Below are positions 6,109 through 62,810 of a stretch of 64,000 nucleotides of DNA, piece by piece. The notes beneath the pieces were generated by a model that had not been told where the DNA came from, searched no databases, and worked only from the letters and a program-made list of their open reading frames with translations. Origin of the DNA: Marsupella aquatica (Eukaryota > Plantae > Marchantiophyta); NCBI GenBank assembly GCA_973895155.1, contig OZ316892.1:7051251-7115250 (forward strand), read 5' to 3'. Positions within the stretch are counted from its first letter, which is position 1, and each line of letters begins with the position of its first letter. A program made the position numbers and the translations under genes.

Positions 6109-13674
<7,566 letters not shown>

Positions 13675-17455: not shown

Positions 17456-18890
17456 ATGGCGTTTCAAGCGCTTCGGCGAGCTGCGGCTGCTCCAGTTATC
17501 CTGCAGCGCGGAAAGGGTGCCTGTCGGTACCTGCAGCAGGGTTTAGCAGGCCCTGCTGTCACTCGCTCTGCTCTTGCTGCGTCTTCCGGCCTTGGGCCAT
17601 CCTCTGCGGAAGCCAGAGCTCCGCTGTGGGCGTTGGCAGCTCGAACGGCGTCCACGGCCCGGGAGGTTGGTCGGGAGGCTGATGCCGGTCTTCTCTCAGT
17701 TCTCAGAGCCGAGCTGGATCATGAGAGAAAGACATACAGTCAGGGAAAGGTATGGACGGAAGCGAATCCAACGATGTCCTCTCTCCCTATGGCCCCCTTG
17801 TATAAGTTAACTTGATTATGATTGAACGCATGTTTAAGCAGCACATGCTCATGATTTGGATCGCTCTTGGCTTTGTATTCCTTAGGGTGTTTGATTCGTT
17901 TCTCTCTGACCTACTCGCCTGTTCTCTGATTTCCGGATCTTGAAATGTAAACTCTGAACCCTGAACTCTTCCTCACTTGAGGAGATGTTTGCTTTCATTC
18001 CATGTCGGCATAATGCGTGTCGGACACCAGAAAGTCGTCCTGTACTCAAAATCCCTCTTCTAGAGAGTGATTAATATGAGAGATCCCCGAGATCTGGGAA
18101 GATTAGTAGAAGAGGAACTGATTCTTCTTTCTCTGTCATACATTTTCTCGACACATTGATTCTCTTATTTGATAACTCCCAAATTCCGGTTTTGTGCTTT
18201 AATGAAGAGGATGTGACTGATCTGTGAACAGGAACTGGCACGAGGGCCTCCCAAGCCTTGGACGGTGACAGATAAACAAGGGTTCGCAGATGTCATATTG
18301 CGTAGATCATATGGGCAAGAAGACATTGCTGTGACATGTCTATATCAGGCAGATACCTATGCTGATGGTCAAAATCCAGAAGAGGATATGAACAGTGAAG
18401 ATGAGGGTATGGATGACAGTGGCATGGGTTCTAGCGTCAACATGACCATCACAATAAATAAAGGCGCTGGCAATCCCACACTAGAAATAAGTGCAGCATC
18501 TTATGGGACTGAGATTACCATTGAGCAGGTTAATTTCTGGGAGGACAACGACAGTAAGGAAACGGGATATGCTGGGCCTAACTTCCTGTAAGTTCGTTGA
18601 CTTGACTTTAGGAGAGTATTTGTCATCTATTTCTTCATTAACCTGAAAACTTGCGCTGGCCTCTCTATTCGTTTCAAATTAACTTGTTCGGAACCTGATA
18701 TGGCCTCTGCTTCATTGTCATTGTAATCAGGCAATTGGATGAAGAGGTTCAAAACCAGTTTGAGAAGTTCATCAAAGCTCGTGGTGTGAATACGGATCTT
18801 ACAGGCTATTTGTTCACTCTCCTGGCGGACAAGGAGCAACGTGAGTATATGCGCTGGCTGCAGAAGGTGGAAGGCTTTCTTAAGCTATGA
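17456..18890 (+). CDS. Mitochondrial glycoprotein, MAM33/p32 (C1QBP) family, ~269 aa
   Basis: Exons 17456-17749, 18232-18587, 18731-18890 (810 nt). Ala/Arg/Ser-rich presequence, LLSVLRAELDHE, an acidic loop, YAGPNF-QLDEEVQ..FEKFIKARGVN..L..LLADKEQREYMRWLQKVEGFL. Confidence 0.9.
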
Positions 18891-33845: not shown

Positions 33846-36107
33846 TTACTGTTTCGCCTGAAAAATTTCCAGGCCAGAGGACTTGAAAAGTTAACAATGA
33901 TAAAGACGCGAAAAATTTCCCGAGCCAGAGCAACACAATTGTCAGGCATAAAACAAAGATGACGACTAGACCTTCACCGGAATAATGTATGCATTTTCGC
34001 CTTCTCCAAAAATAAACACATGCACGAGAAATTCAAAATGAAATGAATCCGAACCAGCGTACTTCACGAGGCAACAATTGATTACCTGGGAGTACAAAAA
34101 CGTTCCGAATATGGCAATGAATGCACCAACACCGTTAATCGGTCGTACTTGCGTGTGGAAGATGATAATGGACGAAACAATGACACTAACTCTCTTCATT
34201 GTGTTACCAATACTGAATGTCAACGGCGAGATTTCGTTCAATGACATGTAGGACACCTGATTGTACAGGTGATAAAATATACTCTGGGCAGCCACCCACC
34301 TGTAGCGAGATAAACATGATAAGTTAATACACGGCAGCTTACAAAAAGAGCAAAATTGTTCTTGCAGAGGTATCACGTGTAATTGAAAAGTCCGTTGCCT
34401 TAAACCCAACACCGATAAGTGTCCTAGAATTCAAAGATTAAACAGACTTCAGTGTTTGACACGGCACTTACCATGCAAATTGTGGCCCAATAGCATTAAC
34501 AGCGTGCGACCAACCAGCAGTCCAGGCCTTTGGACCCTCGACAACCAACGCAAAAGGAGTAAGGAAAGCTAGAGACAGGAACGAGAGGCAAGCATAGTAG
34601 TTCATGCCTCCAACGGACTTGCCAACCATTCCCTTCTTCGAGAAAATATTTCGGAAGACGAACGCAAAGTTTGAAACCATTGCACCAACAAATCCTGCAA
34701 GCCACAGAATCAGACATATAATACAGCCAAACTAGTTTTTTAGATCGAACTCGACTGAGCATGGTGAATGCAACCCTCTGTGACGTCCAGTCCTTACTGG
34801 AAAACGGCCTAATATTTCCGAGCAATATCAGATCTAAAGTGCACCACCTAAAACAATGCAAGGATTCTACTGGTAAGAGTTCTGAAACCTCCGCCTCTCT
34901 CACATCCCACATCGCACACTTCAGGCTTCTGGAGATTCCGATTCACCAATTTATTATTTTCAAGAGGCAGCATCGTACTTCTAAGTGTCCATATCGACAA
35001 TGCGATGGAAATGCCAAAAAGGTTGCTCACAGGACTTTGGTTCCACATACCGACAGTGTTAAAGTTGAGTTCCGTTGCTGCAGCCAAGGCACAGCCTCCA
35101 ATGATAGGCAAGAGAGAGAAATAAACGGATGCAGAGTAGTGTTGTCCCATAAGAAACCTCTGAACAAGCACACTGAAAGCGGGCTCTGCACTCTTGATGA
35201 TGTGGGTGAATGACACTGCTACCTTGGACATGCTAATAGTGGCCGCGACGTGTCCAATCGTATGAGCAAGAGCAACCTGAAGCCCACCGAACGGATGTTA
35301 TAAAACATCAAGGCCACTTGAAAACTGACTGTACAAATTGCCAAAACAACAGAGAATGACCCTGTCAGCTGAACTACAAAGGAAACATACTGCAGCCATT
35401 TGAATCACAACTCTTGAGGTCTATGCCGTTGCCATTCATCACTAGTTTTGAAGTTATGTAGGAGGTGTTAAATTGCAAGTCTCCAACCAGACGAGAAGAA
35501 AAAAATGGCCAGTTCACTAGAACGGACGTACCGGTGCAAGAGCTTTCCAGAAATCAGCATCAACATCAGGCTTTTCTGCTAAGCCTGTGAGCCACGAGAG
35601 CGACATGATGAGTACCCCAGCCGCCAATGAGAGTGTAGACGTGAGCCACGGGTATGGGAAGACGTTCAACACCTTCTTGTTGTAGATATTGAAGACCACA
35701 TTCAGAGTCCACCAGGTAACGAAGTAGATCCCAATTTTCAACCTGGGAGCCTTTTTTACAGGTTCTACAACATTGCCCACGCCCTCTGCTGGAGGCTCAA
35801 CGTCCCCGGCTCCAGCACCAGCTTCATAGGCTTTCGCTTCCACACTCAATTCCTTCGAGAATGTCTGATGGGTTCGCTTGTGCACGAGACCCAAAGATTG
35901 GCCCGACAAATAGGATGCCTGTGACAGACTGGTGAGTCGCAGTGGCTCCACCAATCTTGATGTCAGCTGCACTGAACCCGATCGTCGAACCCCGGCGGCT
36001 GGCTTGTGAATAGCCAAGGGACTCACCAGACCCTTCAGACTTCGGGTGCGACCAGTATCCAGAGCCGGAATTCCGGCTATCCCACACTGTAACGTCATCA
36101 TTCCCAT
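33846..36107 (-). CDS. GPT: Plastid glucose-6-phosphate/phosphate translocator (TPT/DMT family), ~416 aa with transit peptide
   Basis: Exons 36107-35532, 35276-35051, 34694-34472, 34299-34086, 33857-33846 (1251 nt). Motifs: KIGIYFVTWWTLNVVFNIYNKKVLN.FPYPWLTS, HTIGHVAATISMSKVAVSFTHIIKSAEPAF, GKSVGGMNYYACLS, GNTMKRVSVIVSSIIIF and the GPT-type C-terminus YSQ|AKQ*. Confidence 0.92.
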
Positions 36108-36110
36108 CAC

Positions 36111-37570
36111 CTGTACAGGAACCGATTTACGTCAACATGTTAGAACTTCCCTCCAAATGGAAACCCAAAGAAACAGAATGCAGCAGACTACTCCGACAGA
36201 AAAGAGCAATGGGCAGAACAGGGGTGAGAGGGATCTCCACATCTTTAACGTAGATCAGGAAGGAAAGAATGCTTCGCAAATTCCCCACAAAAGTAAAGAT
36301 CTGTGACTTAATTGAAACTCTCCCAACCCGGATGCCTTGCAACATATCCAGCTGAGAGAGTAGATGAACCACAACCGGTAGCCCCAGAGCACAAGTTGAT
36401 TATTCATACAACAGCCTCAAGTTGAATAACAATGGTCTAAACGCACCGTTTGCCAAAGAGAGTCCAATTTATTAGAAGAGGAAGAGGATCAGATGGACCA
36501 CAACTGCCGATCTGGTGCAATTATGAGCGTGACAAATGAACGAATGTATCTGTCTGCCACAAATCTCCTAAGGAAATGAAGAGAGAAGATGGACAAAGAG
36601 AAATTCCTCGAGTGGAATAGCTTTGGACACGGTCAAGTCGCGTGAGCACATGCGTGGACAATCTCGTTAAAGCGGTTCCATACATAAACAACAGAGCGCA
36701 CCACTTTCGACGAGGAAGGATCTACGCATCGGAAATAGAAGACGAACTATCCACAACTCTTGTCCTACGACAGGAAAAACCAAGAACTGTTCCAACCCTA
36801 TCAGCAGTAACGAGCAAACCACGTGCGTCAGCTACCTCAGTGATGCATGCATACTGATTGCTCCTACACCAAAGAGGTCATCTACTAAGCGCTCGATCGA
36901 AGCCTATGCCACCAATCGCAATAGTGAACAAAAGGACTGAACTCAGCCTACAAATTGAAGGAACCCGCAGCAGATTGTTCAAGTGTACGGAGCTCGGGGA
37001 GCTCCAATTTCTACCAAGCAGGCCTACTAACAGAGGCGAAATGCCGATCTAACATAACAAATGAATCGATCGTCCCTTGTAGAATGCTTGGACAGTAATG
37101 AGAACCGACAAGTGCAAGAAATCCGTCTGGTGCACTACACAAGCGATTGGAAAGAAGCGGATAAGAGCACTGACAGGTCGGCGCAAAATTTTCAAAACGC
37201 TCAAGAGGCTGAATCCGAATGGCGACCTTTTCGTGATATGCGAGATTCAATCCCAAGACCCGATTACAAGCTCGCTCAATAAGCAATCGACAGAACTACC
37301 AATAACTCCAGTCCCTACCCTGCTCTCACCACAAGGTGCCTCAATCGACTTACAACGACGGAGAAAGAGAGAACAGAAGTCCAATTGGCCCGCAACGTGA
37401 ACAACTCGACGCCAAGCCCGCAATCGAGTCAGCTTCCGCGCAACAGATATGAACCTGGCCCGATACAATCAATCGAAAGACAAATGCGACTCTATCCAGA
37501 AGTGCATTTGAGCTTAAAAAAAACACCCCGACGCCCTCCACTCAATGAGAGCGACCGAAAGCAAACTCAC
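36111..37570 (-). other. Probable ~1.46-kb 5'-UTR intron of the GPT gene
   Basis: Acceptor CCTGTACAG lies three bases before the ATG. Donor CG|GTGAGT lies at 37570, below a pyrimidine/microsatellite-rich leader (37570-37900). Confidence 0.6.
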
Positions 37571-47429: not shown

Positions 47430-47686
47430 TAAGGGCCTAGGTCTAGGGTGAAACCTCTAGACAGTAACTCCCAATATAGACAAACATGATAATGAGTCTC
47501 ACCAAGGACAGAACTTAAAATGTGGATGGACAAAGGTGACATTGACTCTAAATAAAGACAAAACTGAAATGAGGATGAACTAAAAACAAGGATGGGCAAA
47601 TCAACTAAAATAGCATAGATTTGTTTTTGTGCAAGATCTGTTTTCTTCATATCTCTTTATGTTCCAGGAAGGAGTAATGGTGCTAG
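47430..47686 (+). mobile_element. Second, 5'-degenerate Helitron-like copy in tandem
   Basis: Core GGTCTAGGGTGAAACCTCTAGA...; ends TTCCAGGAAGGAGTAATGGTGCTAG|T. Confidence 0.6.
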
Positions 47687-47689
47687 TGT

Positions 47690-48204
47690 AGGTAACGAGG
47701 GGACCTTAACCCAAGACTTCACTCCTCTAGCGAAAACATGTCGTCTATAAAGGTAAACAGGGCTAGTATAGGTAACGAGGTGACCTTAACCCAAGACTTC
47801 ACTCCTCTTGCAAAAATATCTCATCTATAGAGGTAACCACGTGACCTTAATTAACCCACGACCTCACTCCTCTTGCGAAAACATCTCGTCTATAGAGGCA
47901 ACCAGGTGACCTTAACCCAAGACTTCACTCCTTAACTTGAGTGAGGGCGAACACTGTACCTGCCGGAACTGACAGCATCAGAGCAAACCACGACTTCACT
48001 CCTCTTGCGAAAACATCTAGTCTATAGAGGTAACCAGAGGACCTTAACCCAAGACTCCTCTTGCAAAAACATCTCATCTATAGAGGTAACCAGGGGCCTT
48101 AACCCAAGACTTCACTCCTCTTGCAAAAACATCTCATCTATAGAGGTAACCACGTGACCTTAACCCAAGACTTCACTCCTCTTGCGAAAACATCTTGTCT
48201 ATAG
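47690..48204. repeat. 61-bp tandem array, left part (split by the copia insertion)
   Basis: Unit TATAGAGGTAACCAGGTGACCTTAACCCAAGACTTCACTCCTCTTGCAAAAACATCTCATC, about 7 variably degenerate copies. Confidence 0.9.
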
Positions 48205-48501
48205 TGTGGGGAGAAATCAGATCAGGAAAAACACTCCAAACATACACGAGGTTGGCTACGTCCATGGGAAGACCAAGCTTTATTAACGGTTATGTGTCTA
48301 CTTAAGTATCACCATAGCTCTCATCTCTTCAAGCTCTCATCTCTTGCTATATCACTATGTTCTCTCTTGAGAACTCTCTTGTGTGTTCTCACACCACATA
48401 GAAGTTGAAGAGATAAGGATCAATCTCTTCAACTAGGGTTTACTCTAACCCTAGTTAACATACTAACCATAGTTCAACCCAAGACTGAGTTAACCTCTAC
48501 A
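48205..48501 (-). repeat. 3' LTR of the copia element (297 bp)
   Basis: Matches 54096-54419 except for a 27-bp indel and ~18 substitutions (hand count). Confidence 0.95.
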
Positions 48502-48695
48502 AACTCCCCCTTGACTCACGTCTTGGGAGGGTTCATAACATTGTCTTTTCCTTACAAGTTCCTCCGCGGGAAGTTCAAGACAGTAGGGCCAAAAGACCCT
48601 CCCCCTAATGCAAGGGTTAACTAGAACTAAGCCGTAACCGATAAGCCATCGGATGGAGTACTCATATAGAGACATTTTCTTGGTTAACTCTATAT

Positions 48696-51600
48696 TTACA
48701 ATATTTGTAAATGATTACAATGCCTTGAAAAACTATTGGAGTCTAATACTTTGGTAAAAGCATCCGTTGGATTAAGCTTTTCATCAATCTTGACAAGCTC
48801 AAACTCATCATCCGATAATGCCTGTCGGATGAAATGATAGCGGACATCAATGTGCTTTACCCTACCATCCATCACCTGATTCTTGGCAGTGTAAATTGCA
48901 CTTTGACTGTCACAATGAAGATAGACACAATCTTGTGATAAGCCCATCTTCGTGACAAGCTTTTTCAACCAAATGGACTGATTATGCTTCTACTGCCGCT
49001 ACATACTCGGCATCCGTAGTAGACTTTGCAACACACTTTTGGAGAGTAGACTTCCAACTAATGTATCCACCAGCAAGTGTAAATACATATCCAGTTGTCG
49101 ATCTCCTCTTATCCAGATCACCTGCGTAGTCTGCATCCACATAACCTTGAAGCACTTTCATATTGTGTGAACTTGCATCAAACAATAAACCCTTCTTAGT
49201 GGAACCTCTGATGTAGCCCAAAATCCATTTCACTGCTTCCCAATGAACTTTCCTGGATTTGCCATGTATCTGCTTACCTTGCTAACGGCATAAGCTATGT
49301 CTGGTCGGGTGCATACCATGAGATACATTAAACTACCCACAACACTTTCATAAGGAACTTTGGACATCAAACTTTTTTTTGTCGCATCCGATGGACAAAA
49401 TGCTGCAGAAATATTGAAATGCCTTGCCAAAGGAACACTCACAGCCTTAGCATCTGCCATGTTGAATTTTGAGAGTACCTTCTCTACATATCTTTTCTAC
49501 GTTAGCCAAAGTTTGGCTTTGTTAACATCCCTGACAATCTCCATGCCTAGGATCCTCTTCACTGTGCCCAAATCCTTCATCTTAAACTCAGAACTGAGTT
49601 GGGCCTTAAGCTTATCAACTTCGCCCCTATCCTGTGCTGCAATGAGCATGTCATCCACATAAAGTACAAGGATGACAAGCTTAAAACCTATGTTGTTCAC
49701 ACGCCTGATGTAAACACATGGATCGTACACACTTCGCACAAATCCAAGCGATTTCAAAAATTCATCAAAACGCTTGTTCCATTGCCTCTCAGGGGTCTCA
49801 CTACATGGGGACCCATCATCTGTGATGTTTTTAGGCCTTGGACCCCCTAAAATGTAAGAAAAAAATATTTTTAAACCCCTAGAAAGTTGGAATATTCTTG
49901 GAATATTCCAAAAATTGGATTAAAAAGGCCCTAATGTTCTTATAAGTTTCAAAATTGAATTTAAAAGACCCTATTGTTCTTCTACAAAAATTCTTAAGTC
50001 TTCCCTTACAACCAATAAAATGACCCTATCCTTCGTCGCACGTGATATGCCATTTTTGTGGAAGTGAAACCCCTGAGCACTGCCTTGGGCTCTGCTTTAA
50101 TTCATACAAGGATTTTAGCAACTTGCATACCAAATTTTCTTTGCCCTTTTGCACAAAACCCTCTGGTTGCCTCATGTAAATCACCTCATCCAACGATCCA
50201 TATAAGAATGCCGTGACAACATCCATTTGATCTAAAACCAGATCAAATAAAACTACAAGAGCACATAGCAAACGTATTGTTGAATACTTTGCTACGGGTG
50301 AAAAAACCTCATTGTAGTCTATACCTTTTTGTTGAGTAAAATCCTTGGCTACCAACCGAGCCTTAAGTATCTTCTCAGCATCCTCCGTGGGTCCATCTTT
50401 CTTCCTATACACCCACTTGCTTGTCACTAGGTAGACTTGTGAGTTCTCAAGTCTTGTTATCATGAAGTGATTTCATTTCCATGCGCATCGCCGCCTGCCA
50501 CTGTTGCTTCTCCGTAGAAGCTAGGACCTCTCAAAATGAGGATGGATCTCCATCTTCATCCAAATCCACATGATCAGAAGGAAGCCAAGTTCCATACCTT
50601 TCCCGGGCTTGACGTTTACGATTTCCTCTTCGCACTGAAGACTCTGGCTGATCTGATTGTAGTGCGCTTTGCCTTATAGTAGTGTCAACATATTCTTCAT
50701 TTGACACATCCTTTCCCCTTAAATCATCTAGAGGAGGAGATTGCTCTTTGTTAGTAGTCGGAAATTGACCTATCTCCCCCTCCTTCAATGATTTTTCTTC
50801 ATTGAAGGATACATCCCAACTAACAAGTAATTTGCAATCAACTGGATCCCACAACCGATAACCTTTAACTTCACGCTGATAACCAAGAAAAATGCATTTC
50901 TGGGCTCTAGGATCTAGCTTTGTCCTATTGTTGCTAGGAACATGTGCATATGTTTCACAGCCAAAAATCCTAAGCTTTGAATAATCAGTAGGTCGATTGT
51001 GCCATAACTCAAAGGGGGTTTTGTAAGTAATTGCCCGACTAGGAGAGAGATTTACTAGATAAGCAGCTATGTTGACAACTTCTGCCCAAAAGATTTATGG
51101 CAATTTAGAGTGGCTCAACATGCTCCTTGCTCGCTCCAACAATGTGCGGTTGAGTCGCTCAGCAACACCATTTTTCTCAGGAGTGTACACAGTTGTGAGA
51201 TGGTGAGTAATTCCCTTATTTGCACAATACGTGTTGAACTCGCCAGAGGTGTATTCACCACCATTATCTGATCGTAGATATCTCACATTCTTTGTAGTCT
51301 GTGTCTCAACTTGAGCTACCCATTGTTTGAAGATGGAAAGCACTTCAAACTTATGGGCAATGAAATAAATTCAAACAAACGTTGAGTAATCATCGATAAA
51401 CGATACATAGTATTGTTTGCCTGAATGTGAGAAAACCGGAGTAGGACCCCACACATCGGAATGAATATACTCAAGTACAACTTTAGAATGATGAATGGCA
51501 GTTGGAAATGGAGTTCTTGTTTTCTTGCCGACAATGCAATGATCACAACAACTCAACTTGCATGCTTGCAATCCTGGTAGGAGATGTCGCTTGTGTAGGA

Positions 51601-52974
51601 TTTCCAAACTTTTTTCACTCATGTGACCAAGCCGAGCATGCCATAAATTGATTTTCTCCTCATGAGATGTGACCAAATTGACTTCGGCAAGAAGGGTGGT
51701 GCCTTCCAAGACATAGATGTTTCTTTTCCTCTTGCCAATAAGAACTTCAGTTGATCCATGCGTGACTGTTAACACCCCAGCAGTTGCACTCCATTGATAA
51801 CCCTTCGCATCCAAGTAGCCAAGAGAAATCAAATTCTTACACATTTCTAGAATGTGTCTGACATTTGATAGAATACAGTACTTGCCATCGGGTAGTTGAA
51901 TCTTTACGGATCCAATCCCAAAAACTTTGCAAGAATGATTATTTCCCATCAAAACAGATCTGTTGATAGGAGTGTAGGATGAGAAAAGTTCACGCATATA
52001 ACACATGTGATACGAGCAAGCGGAATCCAAGATCCATTAACAATCCTCAACTTGGGAAGTGGTACACAATGCAAATCCTTCACTATCCTCTTCTCGAACA
52101 ACTACTTGGGCTGGAGAACCGACAACTTCCTTGAATGTGTCTTTGACACGACAATCCTTCTTCATGTGGCCCACTTTGTCACACTTCCAACACTTTATCT
52201 CACGAGTAGACCTGGATGGTGATTTGGATCGAGATCTAGATCTGGATCTAAACCTCCTCCTACCAAAAGATCGGTCGTGGAACCTTCCTCGCTCCATGGG
52301 AAGTGGGTTAAACCTTTTGTTTTCATGAGATGGCTCCCTTGATTTGCCTCTTTCTACCAACAGTGCTGTTGATGATGAGGTTGAGGTAGGATGAGCAGCT
52401 TAGACTGCATGTCATTGGTCAACAGGGCACTCACCACATCATTGTAGAATATAGTTGTCTTATCACGGAATAGAAGAACTCGAGACAAAGATTGGTACGA
52501 AGGTGGTAGTGAGCTCAAGAGTTGTAAGGATTTCTTTTCTTCGCTCAAATGCTCCCCCAAATTCTCTAGGTCAACCACAAGATCATTGAACTGATCGATA
52601 TGATCTTGAATCTTGACTCCATCAGCCATTTTGAATTGCATGAGCTTCAGGCTTGCATACATTCGGTTTGACATCTCCTTCTTGTAGTACTTGTTGTGCA
52701 ATGCTTGAAACAAGTCCGTCACCGTTTGTGTTGCTTTTTCCTTGAACTGCTTTTTCACATTGTTTTTCAGGTACATGCCAACAATACTTACCGCTTGATC
52801 CTGGAGATCATGCCAATCATCATCTTCCATCTCCTTGGGTTCAGATCTTAGTACCTTGCCTAGGCCCATCGCTCTAAGTGCATCCCTCACGTTACGTTCC
52901 CACATTGTATAGTCCATCCGACCATCAAAATTTTCCACCTCAAACCTTTGACCTCCAATCCTAGTAGTCGCCAT
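48696..52974 (-). pseudogene. Disrupted copia gag-pol polyprotein
   Basis: Gag (FEVENFDG..Y..W), zinc knuckle CWKCDKVGHMKKDC, protease (W)ILDSACSYHM, integrase (LWHARLGHMS, IHSDVWGP, LRSDNGGEY, NGVAERLNRTL), RT ([23 protein letters not shown]) and RNase H (GYVDADYAGD, CDSQSAI, KHIDVRYHFIR). Broken by several stops and frameshifts and a MITE. Confidence 0.93.
49788..50077. mobile_element. 290-bp hAT-type MITE inserted in the copia RT domain
   Basis: 15-bp TIR CTCAGGGGT(C/T)TCACT; 8-bp TSD CATTGCCT/CACTGCCT (1 mismatch). Removing it restores LKQSPRQWNKRFDEF. Confidence 0.92.
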
Positions 52975-54095
52975 CGCTGGAATGCCAAATGTAGTGTGGA
53001 GTCGTCTTCCAACAAGAATTAAACGTCGAATGCTCAGATGTGGGGTGTGAAAATAAGGCCAAAAATGAAAGTTGGTGAATTTTGAAACTGATCACTCCTA
53101 TGTGTAGCCCACAAGATAACGCTCCAAATTCTGAAAACGGTTTGTCAAATGGACTCTCGAGTGCCAAGACTTTTACTCCGACCGGAGGGGGGTAAAAGAT
53201 GAAATAATTACCCCTCGAGGGAATCTCTTATGCCAAAGATTCCACTAGTATATTTTTTCAGAATTGAACGCACCAATACTTGCCTAGCTTCCCCAAGTAC
53301 GCCTCTCCAAAAATTGAAGTTGATCCGATTTTATTTGCTGCTCGGAATCTTTGACCTTCGGTAAAAATTTAAGCCTCTAGAAAAGAATCTTTTTGGGAAA
53401 TTCTGTCCGCCCTTGTACAGCCCCTGTGGGGGACTTCACAGGGGGCACTTCCCCCTGCTCGAGCCCTGTCGAGCCCTAAAAGGCCTCCTCGAAGTTTTTG
53501 ACCTCCTCGCGCGTCCGTGAAAGTCGCGACTTCTCGTGGCAGAATGTACCCCTCGGCAAATTCACTCAAATTCCCGTCTCAGTTTGGATTTCGTCTCAGA
53601 AACTAGACTTCGAGGGCATCAAGATTGATATAAAGAACTCGCAAAATGGTGGAGTAATGAGGGAGAAACAATTCGGTGAAAGTGACTGATATTAAGTTAT
53701 CCACCATAGTCAAAATTTCGAGCTCAAAAAACGAGAATTGAAATTAAGATTGCTTCTCAACTGTTTGACGGAATTCAACGATGTTGATATCGAAACGTCT
53801 AGAAAGACAAGGCGCTCAAGCGTATCTCAGTTTCAAGTCCCAATAGAACAATCAAAAAGACTGATCTGAGAAATTGACCTTATCTCTTGCCCGATAACGT
53901 AAATTGAAAACCGTCACTTACAATTGTTTCCATTTCTGACCTCAGGCCTTCATTGCTTCACTGAAATGAGCCCCCGGTTGTGTGCTCCACACTTGTGAGA
54001 AGATTGAGTCCGATCTTCTTTCAATAACTCCGCTTCGAAGAGGAAATCATCCGCTGTTCCTAATCGACTGAAAAAATCTGAATTCTGATACCAAT

Positions 54096-54419
54096 TGTGG
54101 GGAGAAATCAGATCAGGAAAAACACTCCAAACATACACGTGCTCAATAGTTACGTGGTTCGCCTCAAGGTTGGCTACGTCCACGAGAAGACCAAACTTTA
54201 TTAACGGTTATGTGTCTACTCAAACATCACCATAGCTCTTATCTCTTCAAGCTCTCATCTCTTGTTATATCATTGTATTTTCTCTTGAGAACTCTCTTTT
54301 GTGTTCTCACACCACATAGAAGTTGAAGAGAGAAGGACCAATCTCTTCAACTAAGATTTACTCTAACCCTAGTTAACATACTAACCATAATTCAACCCAA
54401 GACTGAGTTAACCTCTACA
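54096..54419 (-). repeat. 5' LTR of the copia element (324 bp)
   Basis: TG...CA ends, adjacent to the PBS; contains 27 bp missing from the other LTR. Confidence 0.95.
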
Positions 54420-54681
54420 TATAGAGGCAACCAGGTGACCTTAACCCAAGACTCCTCTTGCAAAAACATCTCATCTATAGAGGTAACCAGGTGACCTTAA
54501 CCCAAGACTTCACTCCTCTTGCAAAAACATGTCATCTATAGAGGTAACCAGGTGACCTTAACCCAAGACTTCACTCCTCTTGCAAAAACATCTCATCTAT
54601 AGAGGTAACCAGGTGAGCTTAACCCGAGACTTCACTCCTTAACTCGAGTGAGGGTGAACGCTCTAGACAGCATCAGAGCAA
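54420..54681. repeat. 61-bp tandem array, right part, directly upstream of the Sec61 gamma leader
   Basis: Units start at 54420 (56-bp variant), 54476, 54537 and 54598, and end in the same terminal cassette seen at 47924-47986. Confidence 0.9.
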
Positions 54682-54993
54682 TTGTCTCCGTTTGTAGCGT
54701 TCTCCGTTTTCAGTTGTGTGGTTTTTGTATCGTTTTCAGTTGTTTGTCACAGAAAAGAAAAACTTGCTCCGCTCGCTGCTCGCTACCTGCCTTGCGCCGG
54801 CGCGAACGAAAGAGAGAAGACAGAAAGCGCGAGCGAGACTGATTTGAGGAGCCGGAAGGACGCACCACCGACTTAAGTTTACCGAGGTTGTGATTGATTT
54901 AGCTGCCGATCCAGATTGCGGAAGCGAGGAAGAAAGAAAGGAAAGGAAAGAAAGGAAAGAAAAAGCAGGAAGGAAGAAAGAAAGGAGGGAAAA

Positions 54994-55203
54994 ATGGAAG
55001 CAGTCGACAGTGTCGTGAGACCGGTGAAGGATTTCGCGAAGGACAGCATCCGCCTGGTGAAGCGGTGCCACAAGCCGGACCGCAGGGAGTTCACGAAGGT
55101 GGCCACGAGAACCGCGATCGGCTTCGTGGTCATGGGATTCATCGGCTTCTTCGTGAAGCTCATCTTCATTCCCATCAACAACATCATCGTGGGCTCCGGA
55201 TAG
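54994..55203 (+). CDS. SEC61G: Protein transport protein Sec61 subunit gamma, 69 aa, intronless CDS
   Basis: [69 protein letters not shown], the canonical plant SecE/Sec61 gamma sequence; AAAATGG start context. Confidence 0.97.
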
Positions 55204-55888
55204 ACAGATAGATGGCTAAATGCATCCTGAATCCGTCTTTAAATTGTGGTCTGTAATGTATTCCACTCGAACTCCTCAGATCTCATTTTCAGGAGCAAAA
55301 TTTCGTCATATTGTCCAAGCAGAGGAAAGTTTCACTTTAGGGTTTCGAGTTGGAGAGATGTATATTTTTACTCCACTTGTAGGCGTTGGAGTTGCATTCT
55401 AGCGGATAAATCTGACCCATCGTGGCATTTATAATTGGGAAAGGTCGGGTCCGCGTGATGAGGATGATTGGGCTCCGGGATTGGCCCCTGCGACGGAATG
55501 TTTTGTTTGTAGAAGCCCTATTGAACACGGCAGTCGGCAGACGGCAGACACTCTACTTCGATGCGCTCTTAGTTATGTGGTGCAATGTGAATATTGTGGG
55601 TCCATTGGCTCTGAACTCGGCCAAGAGTGCAATTGTCGTGTCATTCATGGGACAATGCTGTCCTAGTTTTCAAATAAATCAGAACGAAGTTGCTCACATG
55701 TGGTACTAGCTCGTCCCTAGTACTGATCGTACTCTGTGGATGAATCTGAGTATAGTAATGCCACCGCCGTGTTGAAGTAGGACTTTCGGCTAACCTCTCC
55801 ATTCTTGAGTGGTATTGAAAAGCTGCAACACCGTGCATTAAGTTTTCTAGGGTCTTGAATTGGTGGATTAATGCAGTCTTTTCGGTCA

Positions 55889-56004
55889 AACTTGGAAATT
55901 TGAAAATGTCAAGATCTCACATAGATGATTCTTCGGGTAGTATTGGCAGCGGAACTTGGAAATTTGAAAATGTCAAGATCTCACATAGATGATTCTTCGG
56001 GTAG
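55889..56004. repeat. 52-bp direct duplication (period 64) between the 3' ends of Sec61 gamma and ARV1
   Basis: AACTTGGAAATTTGAAAATGTCAAGATCTCACATAGATGATTCTTCGGGTAG at 55889 and 55953. Confidence 0.9.
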
Positions 56005-57139
56005 CGGTCTCATCCCTTGTTGCAGGTCTGTTTGAGTCCATACTGCCCTGGGGTCCAGAAATGGTCACAGAAGACATGATTCCATAATTTGGCAAAGGTT
56101 CAAATGGATACTAATGCGTGCGAGGGATGTGAGAACGGTTGCATAAAGTGGACTGACTGCGGGGCACGGAACTGATGAGCAATTGTAGGTAAAGACGGTT
56201 GCAATGAAGACACAGGCGTCCCATCCTTCAGTGCGCAAGTTGAAATCCATTGCGTCCAGCTACCAAAATTTGACACCTTCGATTGATGCATTCTGTGGAT
56301 AATTGCGGGTTGACCATGTGTGGGAACTCTTCAACTGTGGGCCAATAAATTGGGAGTCAAAAGCAGAATCTAGGAGGTATTTAATTTCCTTCTGGGAATT
56401 AGGAGAGTCGACCCAATGATCTCAAAGAAGTAATAGGTTCCGACTCTGAGAAAGTTGCCGAAGCTAATCAAACGTGTCTGTGCAGGGTGATAATTATAAT
56501 CACAAATTCAAGTATCTAAAAGTAAACTATATTCAATCTAGTTGCATGAGAAAGCTTTTCAACAAACCATTTGTACACAATGACAACTTCCCGAATTTAA
56601 TTAGAACACTTATGCAGAATTCTTACATGTGCAAAACAACTGGGAACAGCATCCACCACTTCCGCTTCAAATGCAAGAACTTAAGTTTTGAGACTTCGGG
56701 AGCATTCGATAACTTGTTAGCGTATACGGGAGACATCCAGGAATCAGTCCTGAAATTCAGGCAACCATGGACCCAAGAACTGCTTGTATATTTAATATTG
56801 CGTGCCAATGTGGCATTTCAAACGAATCAACAACCGATCGAACTCAAAGTTCAACTGATTTAAACCGCGCAACTAATTATCCCAAATTAGGCAGGATAAA
56901 GTGAACTAATCGAAAGGGGTGAGGCCAGATGAATAGCTCCAACAAATTTTGGCGAGGTGGCATTAGGAGGAACCTGGCATTGGGATTAGAAGCAAGTATA
57001 CCGTCAGGCCAAGTATTGGGGTGAAAAATGGGGCAAGTTTCTGGTGTTGATGTGAAGACATCAAATCCCAGGAACTCCCATAAATGAAGTACCTTGAGGA
57101 GTTGAATCCAGTGCATCGGAACTAACTACACATCCGTCG

Positions 57140-59381
57140 CTAGGTCCACAAATGGCTGTAAAATTTTGCAAGATTGAACAAATCCAATCCAGAGATCCCA
57201 AGTAGTGTTGCCACTATTGTCTTAACCGCAGCACCACTCATAATGGCAACAGCTGCATGGGCGGTCGTTGTTTTCACCATCACTGATAAACAAAACCATC
57301 GCCCAGTTCAGTTCAGTGCATTGCATACGAAACAAAGATACTGCGAGTGTTCAACAGAAGGACTTACAATGCCAAAAAATACGACCACAGAGGTTCTGAT
57401 ACTTCATTTTTTTAAAACAGTCGTATCCCATGAAGCAGTACCTTTAAAGGCAACAATGTTTGACGAGAAAACGAGCATGTCAATCGTGAAGTTCATCAAA
57501 GGAGAGAATTCCCAAACCTGCACAAGAACGTACCAGATAGTGAGTGTTCATTCTGTCAAGCAATCAATGAGTGAGATAATCGACCGGATATTTCACATTC
57601 AAATGCAAGTCACTCAGATTGGACACGTACCAACATTGCAAAGACAACCAACTTGAAGTGGCTGGAAAGAAGAACTGCCACCAGAATATGCCTCGACCTG
57701 CAAGTTCCCAGCATAGTCCATGAGTACAAGAAAAATTCTAGGTTTGGAAGTATCTTGTACAATCGAGATTTCACGGGTTCCGAACCAAGCTTAGATTAAT
57801 CGGCAGCCATTCAATCAACTCTACTGGAAAAAGTCAAGAACTGCGACTGGTTCCTGGTATAATCCTCCGTTTTTAATATCTAGGGAGGGTGTTAAGACAC
57901 TCACTTCAAGTAGGCAGTAGGCTCTCCTTTTCGCCATGCATGAGCGGCGAGGAAAAGCGCCAGTTGGAAAGCACAGTTTAGACATGAAATTTGTACCAGC
58001 ACCTGAAATTTTAGAGATTGTGAGCCTTCCACCTAAAAGCTCTACATTGATTAGGTATAATGCCAAGTTCACATATGCAAATGAAAAAGCATGCATGCAA
58101 AGATATGGTAGTGTACCTTCCCTGCAGTAAAGCCGAAGGAGGTCAAGCTGTCCCATTGAATAACTTCTTTGTTCCCAATACCTTGTTGCAAAGCACATCT
58201 ACCTGGGAGAAGAGATTAAGGTTAACAAAACGCCGGACAAGGAAGTAAAGTCTGTGCCCCATCTGAATACGCTCTCTTGCATCTCACCGGAGATGATCTT
58301 TTCCACATTCAGATTTCCAGGCATTCTTTAAATCCTTCACGCTTGCTAGTTGAGTTTAAAGTTCTCAAGTTCAAGTTTAAAAGCCTGCTAATTAAAGAAG
58401 AACAATTTGCGGAATGAGTGGACACTCACAAATTTCTTAAGTTAAATGATGCGACGGTTTATGAGGGTAGGAAACTGAGTAACGATCCAACTCAAGTTGA
58501 ACGGAGCAGGAGAATACCTGTGTCAAGGAGCAGATCAACCAGGACTGCCTTCCAAATGAGATTCTGCAAAGAAAATTACCATTAAGAAAGACACGTGACT
58601 CCCAATATTTCTCCACTTGACCAGAAATCTATCCAAACAGCGAACGATTGCTCTCAGATGAACAATTGCAAAGTTAACGTAAAAGTCAAGATGTAAACTT
58701 GATAGTTTCACTGGCAAAGGCATCGGAGTAAACTTAGATGAAGAAAGACAAGAACGCAACAAATGGGGCATAATTGTACCAGAAGGTTGAAACGATGAAG
58801 TTCTGGGTAGTTGAAGAAGAGATGTCGGTAAGCCTCAGGCTTGTGCAGAATTGCATCAATGATAACAATCTACCTCAAACCAGAGACATACATCATTGCC
58901 AGGCAGGCTGCAGAGGGAACAGGCCCTTCCAGAAAACAGACTTCAGCTGTAATACGCTCCATCCTAGTTCTCCGACTGTTGCTAAGGAGACCGATCGCCA
59001 AAAATCAAAACCATCAGATACTGTGTTCACAGGATCACAAGCATTGGAATATCAAACAAAGACGAGGATAATCTTATACCAGAGTTTCATATTCGACATA
59101 TTCATCCACTGGAGATTGACACCGTGTCTGCAGCCATACAGGTGCTGCTCAGAAACCATTACTACCACCAGAAATACATATCAAAGAGACATTTGAGTCA
59201 CAAATAAGAGAAAATTGCTACAGAGGATGCAACTAGGTACACGGACGATCCTTACACAAGTAGAGATCCGGATGTTTCCTGGCGAGTACTCCACATACAC
59301 AGATCGGGCTGAAGTACCGCAATGCACACACACTTTCGCGAAACTCTCCATCGGTCTCACGGCACTGTCGCCCGCTTCCAT
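57140..59381 (-). CDS. ARV1: ARV1 (ER sterol/lipid homeostasis, GPI-anchor related), ~259 aa, with an N-terminus derived from Sec61 gamma
   Basis: Nine exons: 59381-59256, 59127-59080, 58869-58780, 58563-58518, 58202-58117, 58002-57905, 57697-57631, 57517-57442, 57282-57140 (780 nt, frame continuous). Arv1 homology domain: CVHCG...YVEYSPGNIRISTC-TRCQSPVDEYVEYE, IDAILHKPEAYRHLFFN, LIWK..LLLD, LSSHFKL..AMLVWEF, LVFSSNIVA. Confidence 0.88.
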
Positions 59382-59794
59382 TCTCCCTCCTTTCTCTTCC
59401 CTTTCTTTCTTCCTCCCTCCCACGAACTGGAAGGGCAGCTTTATCAACCAGAGACTCGGTAAACCTCAGTCAGTGGTGAGTCCATCCTCTCAATCACTCT
59501 CGTTCGCACTTCCTGTCATTCATTTCTTTTCTTTTCTTTTCTTTTCTTTTCTTTCTTGCTTGCTTTCTTTTCTTTTCTTTTCTTTTCTTTTCTTTCTTGC
59601 TTTCTTTCTTTCCTTCGCGCCGGCGCAAGACAAGGAGCGAGCGAGCAAGGTTTACTTTTCTTTCGTTAGCAAGCAACCCTCCCAGCTATCAGCTATGGCA
59701 AGTACAAATCTTACTTATAAATCTTCAACTACAAGGGGATCTAGGTTTCTAGAGTGAAGACTCTAGATTGTAACTCCATGGCTCATCATGTGGA

Positions 59795-60676
59795 CTAGTC
59801 CCGGCTACCCGTTCTTTGAACATGAATAGTGGAAAGGACAATAAAAAAATTATCAAAATATATTCTCTATTGAATAGTGAAGAGGACAATTAAAAAATTG
59901 TCAAAATATATTATCTATTCATATTCTTTGAAGATTTTTTTTAAATTTTTTTTTAATGAAACTTTATTCCAAGGAGTACCTAGAGGAAAAAACAAAACCT
60001 GCCTGGGAGGAGAAGGCAGGAAAGAACAAGAGCAATTAAGGGGGCAATGAAAGAAGCACACCCAGTGAAGGTGAAGGGTGACCTCCACCCTGACCGCCGG
60101 AAGGGAGGAGGCGGAGAGAGGGAGGGAGGACCCCAAGGAGGATAGAATGCTATCCTAAGAGAGTAGCCAAATAAGTAAACATCGGCTAGAAAACCTTCAC
60201 GAGAACTGAAATGGACTTTGCCATCCCCATCCACCACAACCGGCCAGATAGCTTGTACCCGTCGATATTCCGATGTGTACTCCACCACAGCCGGTGGAAC
60301 AGCTTATACCTGTCGATACTCCAATACTCCAATACTCCCTAGGAAGCCAACATGTGTACCCGCCGAGATTAATGACATGATAAAAAAAATTATCATTTTA
60401 ATAATCATATATAATATATCATTCTCCTTTATGTGCACATCAGTCTTTTTGTATCCACATCCATCTTCTATGCACATATGTTGTGGTGGGGTCATAGTGC
60501 TTATTTTTTTGAATGTAAATACTTAGAAATTATAAAAAAAAATGACATGTACATACATCATAGTCATGTCATGAGTGTCTCCCATGCACATGATGGCCAT
60601 AGAGTTATGGTCTAGAGGCTTCACTCTAGACCTAGCCTCTTAAAAGTAGACTTCACTTGGCGCTTTTATAGTAAGA
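59795..60676 (-). mobile_element. Helitron-like element (inner, antisense), itself carrying a retroposed insert
   Basis: The - strand starts TCTTACTATAAAAGCG and ends GTTCAAAGAACGGGTAGCCGGGACTAG. It sits between A (59794) and T (60677) without a TSD. Confidence 0.75.
59937..60365 (-). mobile_element. 5'-truncated retroposed fragment (LINE 3' end or processed transcript) with a poly(A) tail
   Basis: The - strand ends GGAATAAAGTTTCATT followed by an A-rich tail. It is flanked by AATCT on both sides and is absent from the outer Helitron copy. Confidence 0.6.
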
Positions 60677-61118
60677 TGAGAAAACTGATATCTATGATGT
60701 ATGTCATGTTAAATGATAATCATGACTGCATTTTGTTATGATTTCTATTTATATTAAAAACTGATTTCTATGGCCCCACCATATTATATGTGCATAAGTG
60801 GGATGTGAGATAGAAAAACTGAAAGTGGGATGTGCATAGAAAAGAATACTATGGTATGTTATGTATGATCATTAAAATGATGATATGCATGATAATTTTT
60901 TTATCATTTCATTAACCTTCAAAACATGTGAATAAGGAATATAGTTTGGTGACATTTTTATTGTCCTCCCCACTATTCACGTTCAAAGAACGGGTAGTCG
61001 GGGCTAGTTAGAGACAATATACACAATTTTTACAGAAAATGACCAAACAGATCACAAAAGAACAAACAAAAGAGGGTCCAAGTGGAGAAACAAAAGAAGG
61101 TCACCCAGAGGGCTCCAC

Positions 61119-61673
61119 TAGGGCGTCTCAAAGCTAACATTTGATGTACCTTAAGTCCCTAGTTATGATGTACCTTAAGTCCCTAGTTATGGGTAAAGAC
61201 ACAATAGGTGTCTCAAAGCTTGGAGCTTTGAAAATTAGGGATGATGGCATTTGGTCATAAACAAAGGTCATAACGTTTTCATAAAGTTTTATCTTGTTTT
61301 TTCTTTCACCAGCTTCCAGAGTGACTATGGTTATGGCATAAGATCAATCATTATGCAAAAAGTTATGAATTATGAACTCCATAACTTTTTGTGTCCATAA
61401 CCCATAACTAGAGAGTTAAGGTCCATCAAATTGCCAGTTTTGAGACTCCCTAATCCCTAGTTATGGGTTAAAGACACAAATATTTACAGCTTACTAAATT
61501 CACAGTCCCTAGCTTTGTGCCATGCGGATTGGTCTTATGCCATTACCATTAGTCGCTCTAGAGGCTGGCGAAAGAAAAACAAAAATGAACTTTTACATAA
61601 CCTTGTGAAAAAATGATCATTCCTTTATGGCTGAATGCTATCATCCATAATTTCTCAGCTTTGAGATGCCCTA
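61119..61673. mobile_element. MITE with TAGGG..TCTCAAAGCT TIRs, containing an inverted copy of itself at 61205-61452
   Basis: Outer TIRs TAGGGCGTCTCAAAGCT / AGCTTTGAGATGCCCTA; inner ends TAGGTGTCTCAAAGCT / AGTTTTGAGACTCCCTA. 61205-61350 is the reverse complement of ~61520-61673. Confidence 0.7.
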
Positions 61674-62810
61674 GTAGAAAAGACCCTAGGAAAATTGGTC
61701 TTACAACAATGTATACTGCTTCCATTTCCCCTCCTTTTTTTCATCCTTGCTTGCACTAGCTGGGAAGGCACCTTAGGGTGGCTTTACAAGAAACTAATCT
61801 GAATTATCATGCCCATTCTTTAAATGTAAATTTTGATAAGACCAAAAAAAGGCATTGCAAAAGAATCTATGGTGTTCATCTTTGCCCCCATCTGCGTTTT
61901 CGGTATTCACTTTCAGTTTTGTCCTTACAACTTTAATTACTTTGCCACTAAGGATTCTCAATTTGATAATACTGCATGTTTTTTTGTCTTCACACATATG
62001 CCACGATTTTGTATAAGGACAACAAGTTACACAAAGTAACAAGGTGTGAATATACAAAAAATCATGTCAAATTTGTAAATACAATAAAACAATAAAAACA
62101 ATGACAGTATTGTAAATTAGAACATCTTTTGTGGCAATGTAATTAAAACTTGTTTGTCCTTAATACTTTGTCTTTATCTAGAGTTAGGGTCTGGAGACTT
62201 TACGCTAGAAGTCTGGACCCCAACTCTAGCTTCTGTTTGAGATTTATAAGTAAGATTGGGGACACTTTTTTTAGTTTTTGCGTTGAAAGCCAAAACCAGA
62301 CCCATCCAATAGAGGATAGATGTTCTGCTCCGGAGCATGCAATTTCACCAAAGCAAACAAGAAATTGGGGGCACTTGTGAACTTTTTTCACCAATCAAAG
62401 TGGAGGACCCAGTCCAATGTATTCTTTGGCTAAAGTTTTTCTGGCTCTGACAACGGTCGATCTTATAAGGACTTTAATGCAAATGACTCAGAATATGAAT
62501 GGACCGAGGGGCCAAAAGAACACATCTCCAGCAGAGCTGATCTAAAATCTGGGACAAAAATGTGCTTCGCATAAGCAGAAATTGGGCCCCACTCCATTCC
62601 ATGTAGGATCGACAGCCAATTAGGTTTAATGGATGGCCTTCATCACATCTCAGAACCAGTTAGGTTGAAACAAAAAAAAGGTGGAAAGTGCCACCAACAT
62701 CTTATGAAGCAACTACCCAGAAACTCAGCAAACCTCATTTCCTGTGCTTTGTATTGGCAAAATTCACCAAATTGCACATCTCCCGAGGCAAGGAGCAAGT
62801 GAACGCTAAG

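What the first reader, a model, noticed from the sequence alone, without database searches (positions are those of the whole stretch)
54750..59670. Chimeric ARV1: its 5' leader and first 16 codons are an inverted copy of the neighbouring Sec61 gamma gene
Seen in sequence: the - strand ARV1 gene starts MEAGDSAVRPMESFAK-VCVHCG and the + strand Sec61 gamma ~4.3 kb away starts [21 protein letters not shown]. The first 48 coding nt match 40/48 (11/16 aa). Homology continues ~250-290 nt upstream through the leader (CTTGCTC.GCTCGCT, CTTGCGCCGGCGCGAA.GAAAGA, CACCAC.GACT.A.GTTTACCGAG, TTGAT..AGCTGCC..TCCAG.T, the GAAA-rich tract, AAAGGAGGGA.AATGGAAGC): 54750-55041 versus 59334-59670. Homology stops at codon 16, one residue before the ARV1 zinc-binding CxxC. 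The rest of ARV1 is an intact 9-exon ORF. Established: this N-terminus is the conserved plant Sec61 gamma start, while ARV1 normally has only a few residues before CxxC, so Sec61 gamma is the donor. Inference: a local inverted duplication replaced the ARV1 start region and leader. That could tie an ER lipid/GPI factor to the transcriptional and translational control of an ER translocon subunit.
Basis: partly seen in the sequence, partly recalled or inferred. Interest (0 to 1): 0.85.

Follow-up and report, generated by a model that had tools for sequence, protein, structure and literature searches.

The report
ARV1 front copied from Sec61 gamma
In a plant that is likely a leafy liverwort, the otherwise intact ER-membrane gene ARV1 begins with a flipped copy of the leader and first 16 codons of its neighbour Sec61 gamma; the copy likely replaced its old front end and likely supplies its promoter and start codon, a clean but known kind of chimeric gene whose expression is untested.

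Summary
A block of about 290 bases (Sec61 gamma 54751-55041, ARV1 59661-59334) is shared in inverted orientation: 164 of 196 aligned leader bases and 40 of 48 coding bases match. Homology stops at codon 16. ARV1 is an intact nine-exon, 259-residue gene. Contigs from three runs bridge the junction, two of them in a divergent haplotype, so it is not an assembly error.

Sec61 gamma is the donor. Its start is conserved across plants, whereas none of 41 informative ARV1 relatives has it. That includes Calypogeia fissa (85% identical), where the two genes have consecutive accessions and so are probably already neighbours.

The copy swapped about 13 native codons for 16. The captured peptide drifts (pN about equal to pS) and lacks the membrane helix, so it is likely a passenger of promoter, leader and start-codon capture. 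The layout fits a small inversion with a staggered break, or in-place templated repair. A third decayed fragment and a multi-copy relative leave a transposon route open. No RNA evidence was available, so co-regulation is untested; the copy carries three upstream ATGs that Sec61 gamma lacks. This is a new member of a known kind.

The parts
54994..55203 (+). Sec61 gamma CDS, 69 aa, intronless (donor gene)
   Evidence: Pfam SecE E 2e-14; 68/69 identical to Calypogeia fissa P0024
54751..55041 (+). Shared block, Sec61 gamma copy: likely core promoter and leader (no ATG) plus codons 1-16
59334..59661 (-). Shared block, ARV1 copy: leader with an expanded GAAA tract plus 16 Sec61 gamma-derived codons (start ATG at 59381)
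   Evidence: bridged by contigs of X1, X3 and X4
59256..59381 (-). ARV1 exon 1: 16 captured codons, then native Val17 and the first CxxC
   Evidence: Pfam Arv1 matches residues 17-42
57140..59127 (-). ARV1 exons 2-9 (59127-59080, 58869-58780, 58563-58518, 58202-58117, 58002-57905, 57697-57631, 57517-57442, 57282-57140)
   Evidence: 217 of 256 aligned residues identical to C. fissa P0001
59444..59523 (-). Three upstream ATG frames in the copied leader (59523, 59519, 59485; 9, 9 and 13 codons), all ending before the ARV1 start; absent from the Sec61 gamma leader. They act as uORFs only if transcription starts upstream of them
61694..61774 (-). Third, more decayed fragment of the Sec61 gamma start (about 45 nt of leader plus about 11 codons), same orientation as ARV1
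   Evidence: 46/55 identical to Sec61 gamma, score 69 vs shuffle maximum 37; E 2e-9; alignment A1
59707..62257 (.). Stretch of TIR-like repeats starting 45 nt upstream of the ARV1 block; holds two nested foldback elements with TA duplications and the third fragment
   Evidence: high depth; the divergent haplotype departs after 59706
48205..54419 (-). Copia LTR retrotransposon (target duplication TATAG) inside a roughly 61-bp tandem array that ends about 70 nt upstream of the Sec61 gamma block

Best explanation
ARV1 here begins with an inverted copy of the leader and first 16 codons of the neighbouring Sec61 gamma gene; the copy likely replaced about 13 native codons and the old upstream region in one local break-repair event, and it likely now supplies ARV1's core promoter, leader and start codon. 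Shown: the shared block, the in-frame junction just before the zinc-ribbon CxxC, an intact ARV1 body, and the same junction in two haplotypes. Inferred: (1) the two genes were already neighbours; (2) the event postdates the split from Calypogeia fissa and predates the split of the two haplotypes; (3) the most likely route is a small inversion of the 4.3-kb gene pair with a staggered break across the Sec61 gamma front, which leaves that front at both ends in inverted orientation and detaches ARV1's old front in one step (about 0.45 within this reading; in-place templated repair about 0.35); (4) the 16-residue peptide is a tolerated passenger, and only the ATG and frame are needed, so the protein would work as an ordinary ARV1; (5) ARV1 would be transcribed from a housekeeping-type Sec61 gamma front, possibly damped by gained upstream ATGs.
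For: Homology and statistics. Direction: 113 of 120 listed Sec61 gamma hits could be scored and match the ARV1 16-mer with a median of 8/16, up to 11/16. Of 46 ARV1-family proteins fetched, 42 showed the motif and one of those is N-truncated; none of the 41 informative ones exceeds 4/16 ungapped identity to the Sec61 gamma start. Prior adjacency: C. fissa ARV1 CAM6083193.1 and Sec61 gamma CAM6083194.1, and CAM6116435.1 / CAM6116437.1. Not an artefact: an X1 contig spans 55975-59510 with 0 differences; X3 (59247-59510) and X4 (59040-59452) contigs bridge the junction in a divergent haplotype. Of that haplotype's 5 listed differences inside the block, 3 move to or toward the Sec61 gamma base (59334, 59344, 59416), and one removes the internal Met11, leaving the captured ATG as the only in-frame start before CxxC. 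Passenger peptide: 6 nonsynonymous and 2 synonymous changes (pN 0.169, pS 0.211); 2 of 3 haplotype differences in the captured codons change the residue, against 0 of 2 in native exon 1. The membrane helix of Sec61 gamma (peak 19-residue window from residue 41) was not copied. Little else could be the promoter: only about 45 nt lie between the block and a repeat, and the two haplotypes part after 59706. Staggered-break inversions leave inverted duplicates of median 321 bp in Drosophila yakuba (PMC1885836, passages).
Against: There are no transcript data, so the start site, splicing and expression are untested, and part of the block may be promoter rather than leader. Consecutive accessions suggest adjacency but give no orientation or distance. 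No remnant of the old ARV1 front was found beside either block, so the inversion route has no direct support. The codon counts are tiny (Fisher p 0.4), so neutrality of the peptide is not established. Two of the residue changes (V4G, V7A) make the start resemble the C. fissa ARV1 start, which this reading treats as chance. A third fragment and a multi-copy relative of the leader show that this front was copied more than once. The ARV1 comparison set holds named mosses, ferns, a lycophyte, one named liverwort and unnamed records; no named flowering-plant ARV1 was returned.
Confidence: 0.75

Rival explanations
1. In-place templated repair (template switch or ectopic gene conversion): a break in ARV1 exon 1 was repaired by copying the neighbour's front, without inverting the gene pair. 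The functional outcome is the same, but ARV1 keeps its own distal upstream flank.
For: Gives the same layout. At most one or two bases of microhomology are needed at the junction (the divergent haplotype matches Sec61 gamma through codon 16 and one more base). The start of C. fissa ARV1 faintly resembles the chimeric start, which could have seeded pairing.
Against: Needs a separate loss of the old ARV1 front; no remnant is seen upstream of 59661. That flank is overwritten by repeats, however, so the absence says little.
Confidence: 0.3
2. Transposon-carried capture (Pack-type): a DNA transposon picked up the Sec61 gamma front, spread it, and a local hop or rearrangement fused one copy to ARV1.
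For: The third fragment lies inside a stretch bounded by facing TIR-like ends (59707/62257). Runs X3, X4 and X5 hold a contig that matches 33 of 34 bases at 59454-59487 and continues in leader-like sequence, at depth 607, 240 and 15 against about 44-67, 19-46 and 4 for the single-locus contigs. It then leaves into sequence not found in the window. Local hopping and capture by plant TIR elements are reviewed in PMC13317346 (passages).
Against: No element end or target duplication at the ARV1 junction. The repeat upstream of ARV1 is missing or different in the divergent haplotype that already has the chimera. The empty-site continuation is not found at the far TIR end. The recipient is the very next gene. 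X1 shows no extra depth over the leader at 85% likeness (20.2 vs 20.8).
Confidence: 0.13
3. The captured peptide itself matters: as the start of the Sec61 gamma amphipathic helix it would dock ARV1 at the membrane or the translocon.
For: In-frame and free of stops or frameshifts in both haplotypes; some amphipathic character remains (moment 0.57 vs 0.71). ARV1 and the translocon share the ER membrane (established knowledge).
Against: pN is about equal to pS; 5 of 16 residues are changed, 2 more differ between haplotypes. Pfam SecE starts at residue 12 and the membrane helix is absent.
Confidence: 0.06
4. Assembly chimera, or an ARV1 pseudogene with a working copy elsewhere.
For: No transcript evidence is available; an older paralogue under 85% identity would not have been laid.
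Against: The junction is bridged in 3 of 5 runs and in two haplotypes. The two copies differ at 16% of sites. ORF and splice sites are intact, with 85% identity to C. fissa. One unbranched 3.5-kb contig at single-locus depth in X1. In X4: 2 differences, both synonymous, in 126 nt of native exons 1-2 against 9 in the 128-nt intron 1.
Confidence: 0.05

Closest known systems
Chimeric genes from partial duplications that ignore gene boundaries (Drosophila yakuba; PMC5460883, abstract and section 7 read)
   Same: The 5' end of one gene is joined to the body of a neighbour; such chimeras often change expression (24 of 76 upregulated in that study).
   Different: There the chimera is an extra, tandem copy and the parental genes stay unaltered. 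Here the duplicate is inverted, and the resident, apparently single-copy ARV1 itself carries the new front.
Inversions with staggered breaks that leave inverted duplications at the breakpoints (Drosophila; PMC1885836, passages read)
   Same: A unique sequence is duplicated in inverted orientation at both ends of a segment; the size fits (median 321 bp there, about 290 bp here); duplication from only one breakpoint is common there (12 inversions).
   Different: Those are chromosome-scale inversions. Here the segment would be only 4.3 kb, the inversion itself is unproven, and the product is an in-frame chimera.
Promoter rearrangement in plants, e.g. rice Kala4 (bioRxiv 10.1101/2020.12.25.423663, passages citing Oikawa 2015)
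   Same: A local duplication or insertion gives a resident gene a new upstream region from nearby DNA.
   Different: Kala4 gained an 11-kb segment from 83 kb away and has a demonstrated expression change and phenotype; neither is shown here.
ARV1 family (PF04161); human ARV1 as a subunit of GPI-GnT through PIGQ (PMC12182360, passages read)
   Same: Two CxxC motifs at 18-21 and 42-45, the Arv1 domain, and predicted membrane segments are present.
   Different: Residues 1-16 come from Sec61 gamma. The plant protein's function was not tested.

Membership tests
Chimeric gene by partial duplication (5' capture) | Parts of one ORF are homologous to two unrelated genes, with a sharp junction | tested here: met
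   40/48 nt then 5/18 nt; Pfam Arv1 from residue 17
Chimeric gene by partial duplication (5' capture) | The donor segment is ancestral in the donor and derived in the recipient | tested here: met
Chimeric gene by partial duplication (5' capture) | The junction exists in real DNA | tested here: met
   Contigs of X1, X3 and X4 bridge 59334
Chimeric gene by partial duplication (5' capture) | Transcribed as one spliced mRNA from the captured front | not testable with these tools
   No RNA run was available to lay
Promoter capture | Expression pattern follows the donor | not testable with these tools
   No expression data; only the short unique flank argues that the promoter lies in the block
Staggered-break inversion | Inverted duplicates of unique sequence at both ends of a segment | tested here: met
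   54751-55041 and 59334-59661 flank the two gene bodies
Staggered-break inversion | The segment is inverted relative to an outgroup | not testable with these tools
   No eukaryotic genome is held; only accession order was seen
Staggered-break inversion | The detached old ARV1 front lies at the other breakpoint | tested here: inconclusive
   No tblastn hit and no ATG in 54640-54993; that flank is about 70 nt of unique DNA and then repeats
Pack-type TIR element | The fragment lies between TIRs with a target-site duplication | tested here: not met
   ARV1 block: no TIR or TSD at its ends. Third fragment: facing TIR-like ends but no TSD and no empty-site match
Pack-type TIR element | The captured fragment is multi-copy | tested here: inconclusive
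   High-depth leader relative in X3-X5, not in X1; its flanks are known only as short loose ends
ARV1 family | N-terminal zinc ribbon (two CxxC) with Arv1 domain, followed by membrane segments | tested here: met

The most novel reading that the evidence does not exclude
A 4.3-kb micro-inversion with a staggered break swapped the upstream sides of two resident ER genes in one step: ARV1 took over the original Sec61 gamma promoter side, Sec61 gamma moved with a 290-base copy, and gained upstream ATGs retuned ARV1 output. A single-copy conserved gene would thus be stably rewired under a translocon promoter, in a haploid-dominant plant, with the Sec61 gamma front acting as a repeatedly copied portable expression module.
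Probability: 0.2. Interest if true: 0.65.

Novelty: new member of a known kind. Interest (0 to 1): 0.42.

Why it matters
It is an unusually well-resolved natural case in which a conserved, apparently single-copy gene lost its own front end and survived on its neighbour's, with a base-level junction, an outgroup state and two haplotypes in hand. It makes two general questions testable in a liverwort. One is whether small staggered-break inversions make in-frame chimeras in plants. The other is how interchangeable housekeeping promoters and leaders are. If expression merely stays broad, it is a tidy but ordinary example.

Tried and rejected
No whole genome is held for this window, so a second ARV1 and further leader copies could not be searched for directly.

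No RNA holder was listed among the 5 runs found; this says nothing about expression.

One scan of metagenome contigs with P0001 gave 1 locus from 187 candidate stretches (L001), a moss-like ARV1 with an unrelated front.

The 50%-representative search with exon 1 gave 8 hits: 3 are ARV1 (P0155, P0157, P0159). P0153 was read and is a repetitive unrelated protein; the other 4 were not read.

A search for a remnant of the old ARV1 front found only one weak hit (E 0.02, 11945-11974), on the strand opposite a long ORF; rejected as chance.

Conserved RNA structure in the leader: none of 4 segments folded better than shuffles (z -0.06 to 1.94). No TATA or CCAAT-like motif by a simple pattern scan. The leader does not differ significantly less than intron 1 between haplotypes (p 0.28 and 0.33).

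The two 19-base loose-end motifs were not found in the window with up to 3 mismatches.

Literature: no held paper has ARV1 + Sec61 + chimeric, and none of the 4 papers with three of ARV1/liverwort/Marchantia/Sec61 mentions ARV1. Searches were seen as listings except the papers cited as read. Subscription journals are not covered.

The scan's earlier notes had nothing near this place or like this sequence, and nothing relevant among the 8 same-genome notes shown.

No structure or complex prediction was run, since neither would decide the question.
Full report
1. Observation. The Sec61 gamma CDS lies at 54994-55203 (+), 69 residues, without an intron. ARV1 runs 59381..57140 (-) in nine exons with eight GT-AG introns and an open frame of 259 residues. 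The first 48 coding bases match at 40 positions (11 of 16 residues); the next 18 match at 5. Upstream, 54751-54993 aligns with 59661-59382 at 164 of 196 columns; the large gaps are expansions of GAAA-rich tracts, one in each copy. The alignment scores 189 against a maximum of 48 in 200 shuffles, and whole-window BLASTN returns three collinear inverted hits.

2. Not an assembly error. Five public runs hold the region. In X1, which may be the source sample, one contig covers 55975-59510 with no difference, at the same depth as Sec61 gamma (about 21). In X3 and X4, contigs of a divergent haplotype bridge the junction with 7 and 17 differences. Of the 5 differences listed inside the shared block, 3 go to or toward the Sec61 gamma base, and one turns Met11 into Ile, so in that haplotype the captured ATG is the only in-frame start before the zinc ribbon. 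The copies differ from each other at about 16% of sites, the haplotypes at 4-7% in intron 1, so the event is inferred to be older than the haplotype split.

3. Organism and direction. The closest named relatives are from the leafy liverwort Calypogeia fissa: ARV1 at 217 of 256 residues and Sec61 gamma at 68 of 69. The Sec61 gamma start is conserved from algae to flowering plants. Of 46 ARV1-family proteins fetched, 42 showed the N-terminal motif, one of them truncated; none of the remaining 41 exceeds 4 of 16 ungapped identities to the Sec61 gamma start, against 11 of 16 here. C. fissa ARV1 has 14 unrelated residues before CxxC, and two unnamed liverwort-like records have 14 and 19, ending in Val as here. 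In C. fissa the two proteins carry consecutive accessions, and near-consecutive ones in a second record set. I infer that the genes were neighbours before the event; orientation and distance there are unknown. Locus tags place ARV1 and Sec61 gamma on different chromosomes in Ceratodon.

4. What the copy does. The captured codons show 6 nonsynonymous and 2 synonymous changes over 35.5 and 9.5 sites (pN 0.169, pS 0.211). Between haplotypes, 2 of 3 differences there change the residue, against 0 of 2 in native exon 1 (Fisher p 0.4, so only suggestive). The membrane helix of Sec61 gamma was not copied and Pfam SecE begins at residue 12. The peptide is likely a passenger. The ARV1 body keeps both CxxC motifs and predicted membrane segments. 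Human ARV1 works in GPI-GnT through its ARV1 homology domain (PMC12182360, passages), a region the swap leaves whole. Only about 45 bases separate the ARV1 block from a high-copy repeat, and the two haplotypes part after 59706. Sec61 gamma has about 70 unique bases before a tandem array holding a Copia element. The core promoter of both genes is therefore likely in or next to the shared block (inference). The ARV1 copy has three upstream ATGs and the Sec61 gamma leader has none; the one at 59485 lies in a stretch where X3 shows no difference. Shared translational control is thus doubtful. No RNA structure stands out. Expression was not testable.

5. How it arose. The layout is block, Sec61 gamma body, ARV1 body, inverted block. 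An inversion of the two gene bodies with a staggered break across the Sec61 gamma front gives exactly this in one step and also detaches the old ARV1 front. In Drosophila such breaks explain 17 of 29 inversions and leave duplicates of median 321 bp in D. yakuba (PMC1885836, passages). In-place templated repair gives the same picture, and no remnant of the old front was found on either side, so the two routes are not separated; flanking-gene order in C. fissa would separate them. Two observations keep a transposon route alive. First, a third fragment at 61694-61774 (46 of 55 bases identical to Sec61 gamma) lies among TIR-like repeats. Over codons 1-11 it has 7 private changes against 3 for the ARV1 copy, and shares 1 with it. 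Second, X3, X4 and X5 hold a high-depth contig with a piece of the leader that leaves into other sequence; it is not in the window and adds no depth in X1. No target duplication or element end marks the ARV1 junction.

6. Known kinds and novelty. Joining one gene's 5' end to a neighbour's body by partial duplication is well described and often changes expression (24 of 76 chimeras in D. yakuba; PMC5460883, section 7). Promoter rearrangement of a resident plant gene is known from rice Kala4 (passages). Unchecked notes of this scan report several look-alike cases in animals and bacteria, which lowers surprise but is not support. I found no held paper on this gene pair. What is a little unusual is that the resident, apparently single-copy gene carries the new front and that it is shared by two haplotypes. 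Verdict: real, a new member of a known kind, regulatory consequence untested; interest 0.42.

Noticed in passing
window 61694-61774 (-): Third, more decayed copy of the Sec61 gamma start (about 11 codons plus about 45 nt of leader), 2.3 kb upstream of ARV1 and in its orientation, among TIR-like repeats; on a single-locus-depth contig in X1.
   Followed up: partly
window 59454-59487, runs X3, X4, X5: A contig at several times single-locus depth matches 33 of 34 bases of the ARV1 leader and continues in sequence that, read by eye, is intermediate between the ARV1 and Sec61 gamma leaders: an apparently multi-copy relative elsewhere in those genomes.
   Followed up: partly
window 54994-55203: Sec61 gamma is intronless with GC3 0.87 against 0.48 for the ARV1 body. 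An algal orthologue's header gives a 310-nt locus for 69 aa (P0072), which implies an intron there. Intron loss or an old retrocopy is possible.
   Followed up: no
window 59361-59381 (-): Two of the changes in the captured peptide (V4G, V7A) make it resemble the start of C. fissa ARV1; chance, or a trace of the old start.
   Followed up: partly
window 47682-54681: Copia element (LTRs 48205-48501 and 54096-54419, 235/253 identical in the core, TATAG target duplication, broken pol) inserted into a roughly 61-bp tandem array just upstream of Sec61 gamma.
   Followed up: partly
window 59707-62257: Nested foldback elements (about 59790-61005 and 61122-61670) with TA duplications at CTAG sites; related ends recur at about 22084, 29059, 39355, 46947, 47072 and 47430.
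   Followed up: partly
runs X3 and X4: Both appear to carry two haplotypes of the locus, one matching the window and one a few percent diverged (clearest in X4): a polyploid or mixed sample.
   Followed up: no
window 55889-56004: Exact 52-nt direct repeat with 64-nt spacing between the 3' ends of the two genes.
   Followed up: no
window 6109-13713 (-): Single stop-free frame of 2534 codons with three Myb/SANT-like domains. Also a MAM33 exon at about 18217-18591 (+) and a TPT-family gene at about 33966-36131 (-).
   Followed up: no
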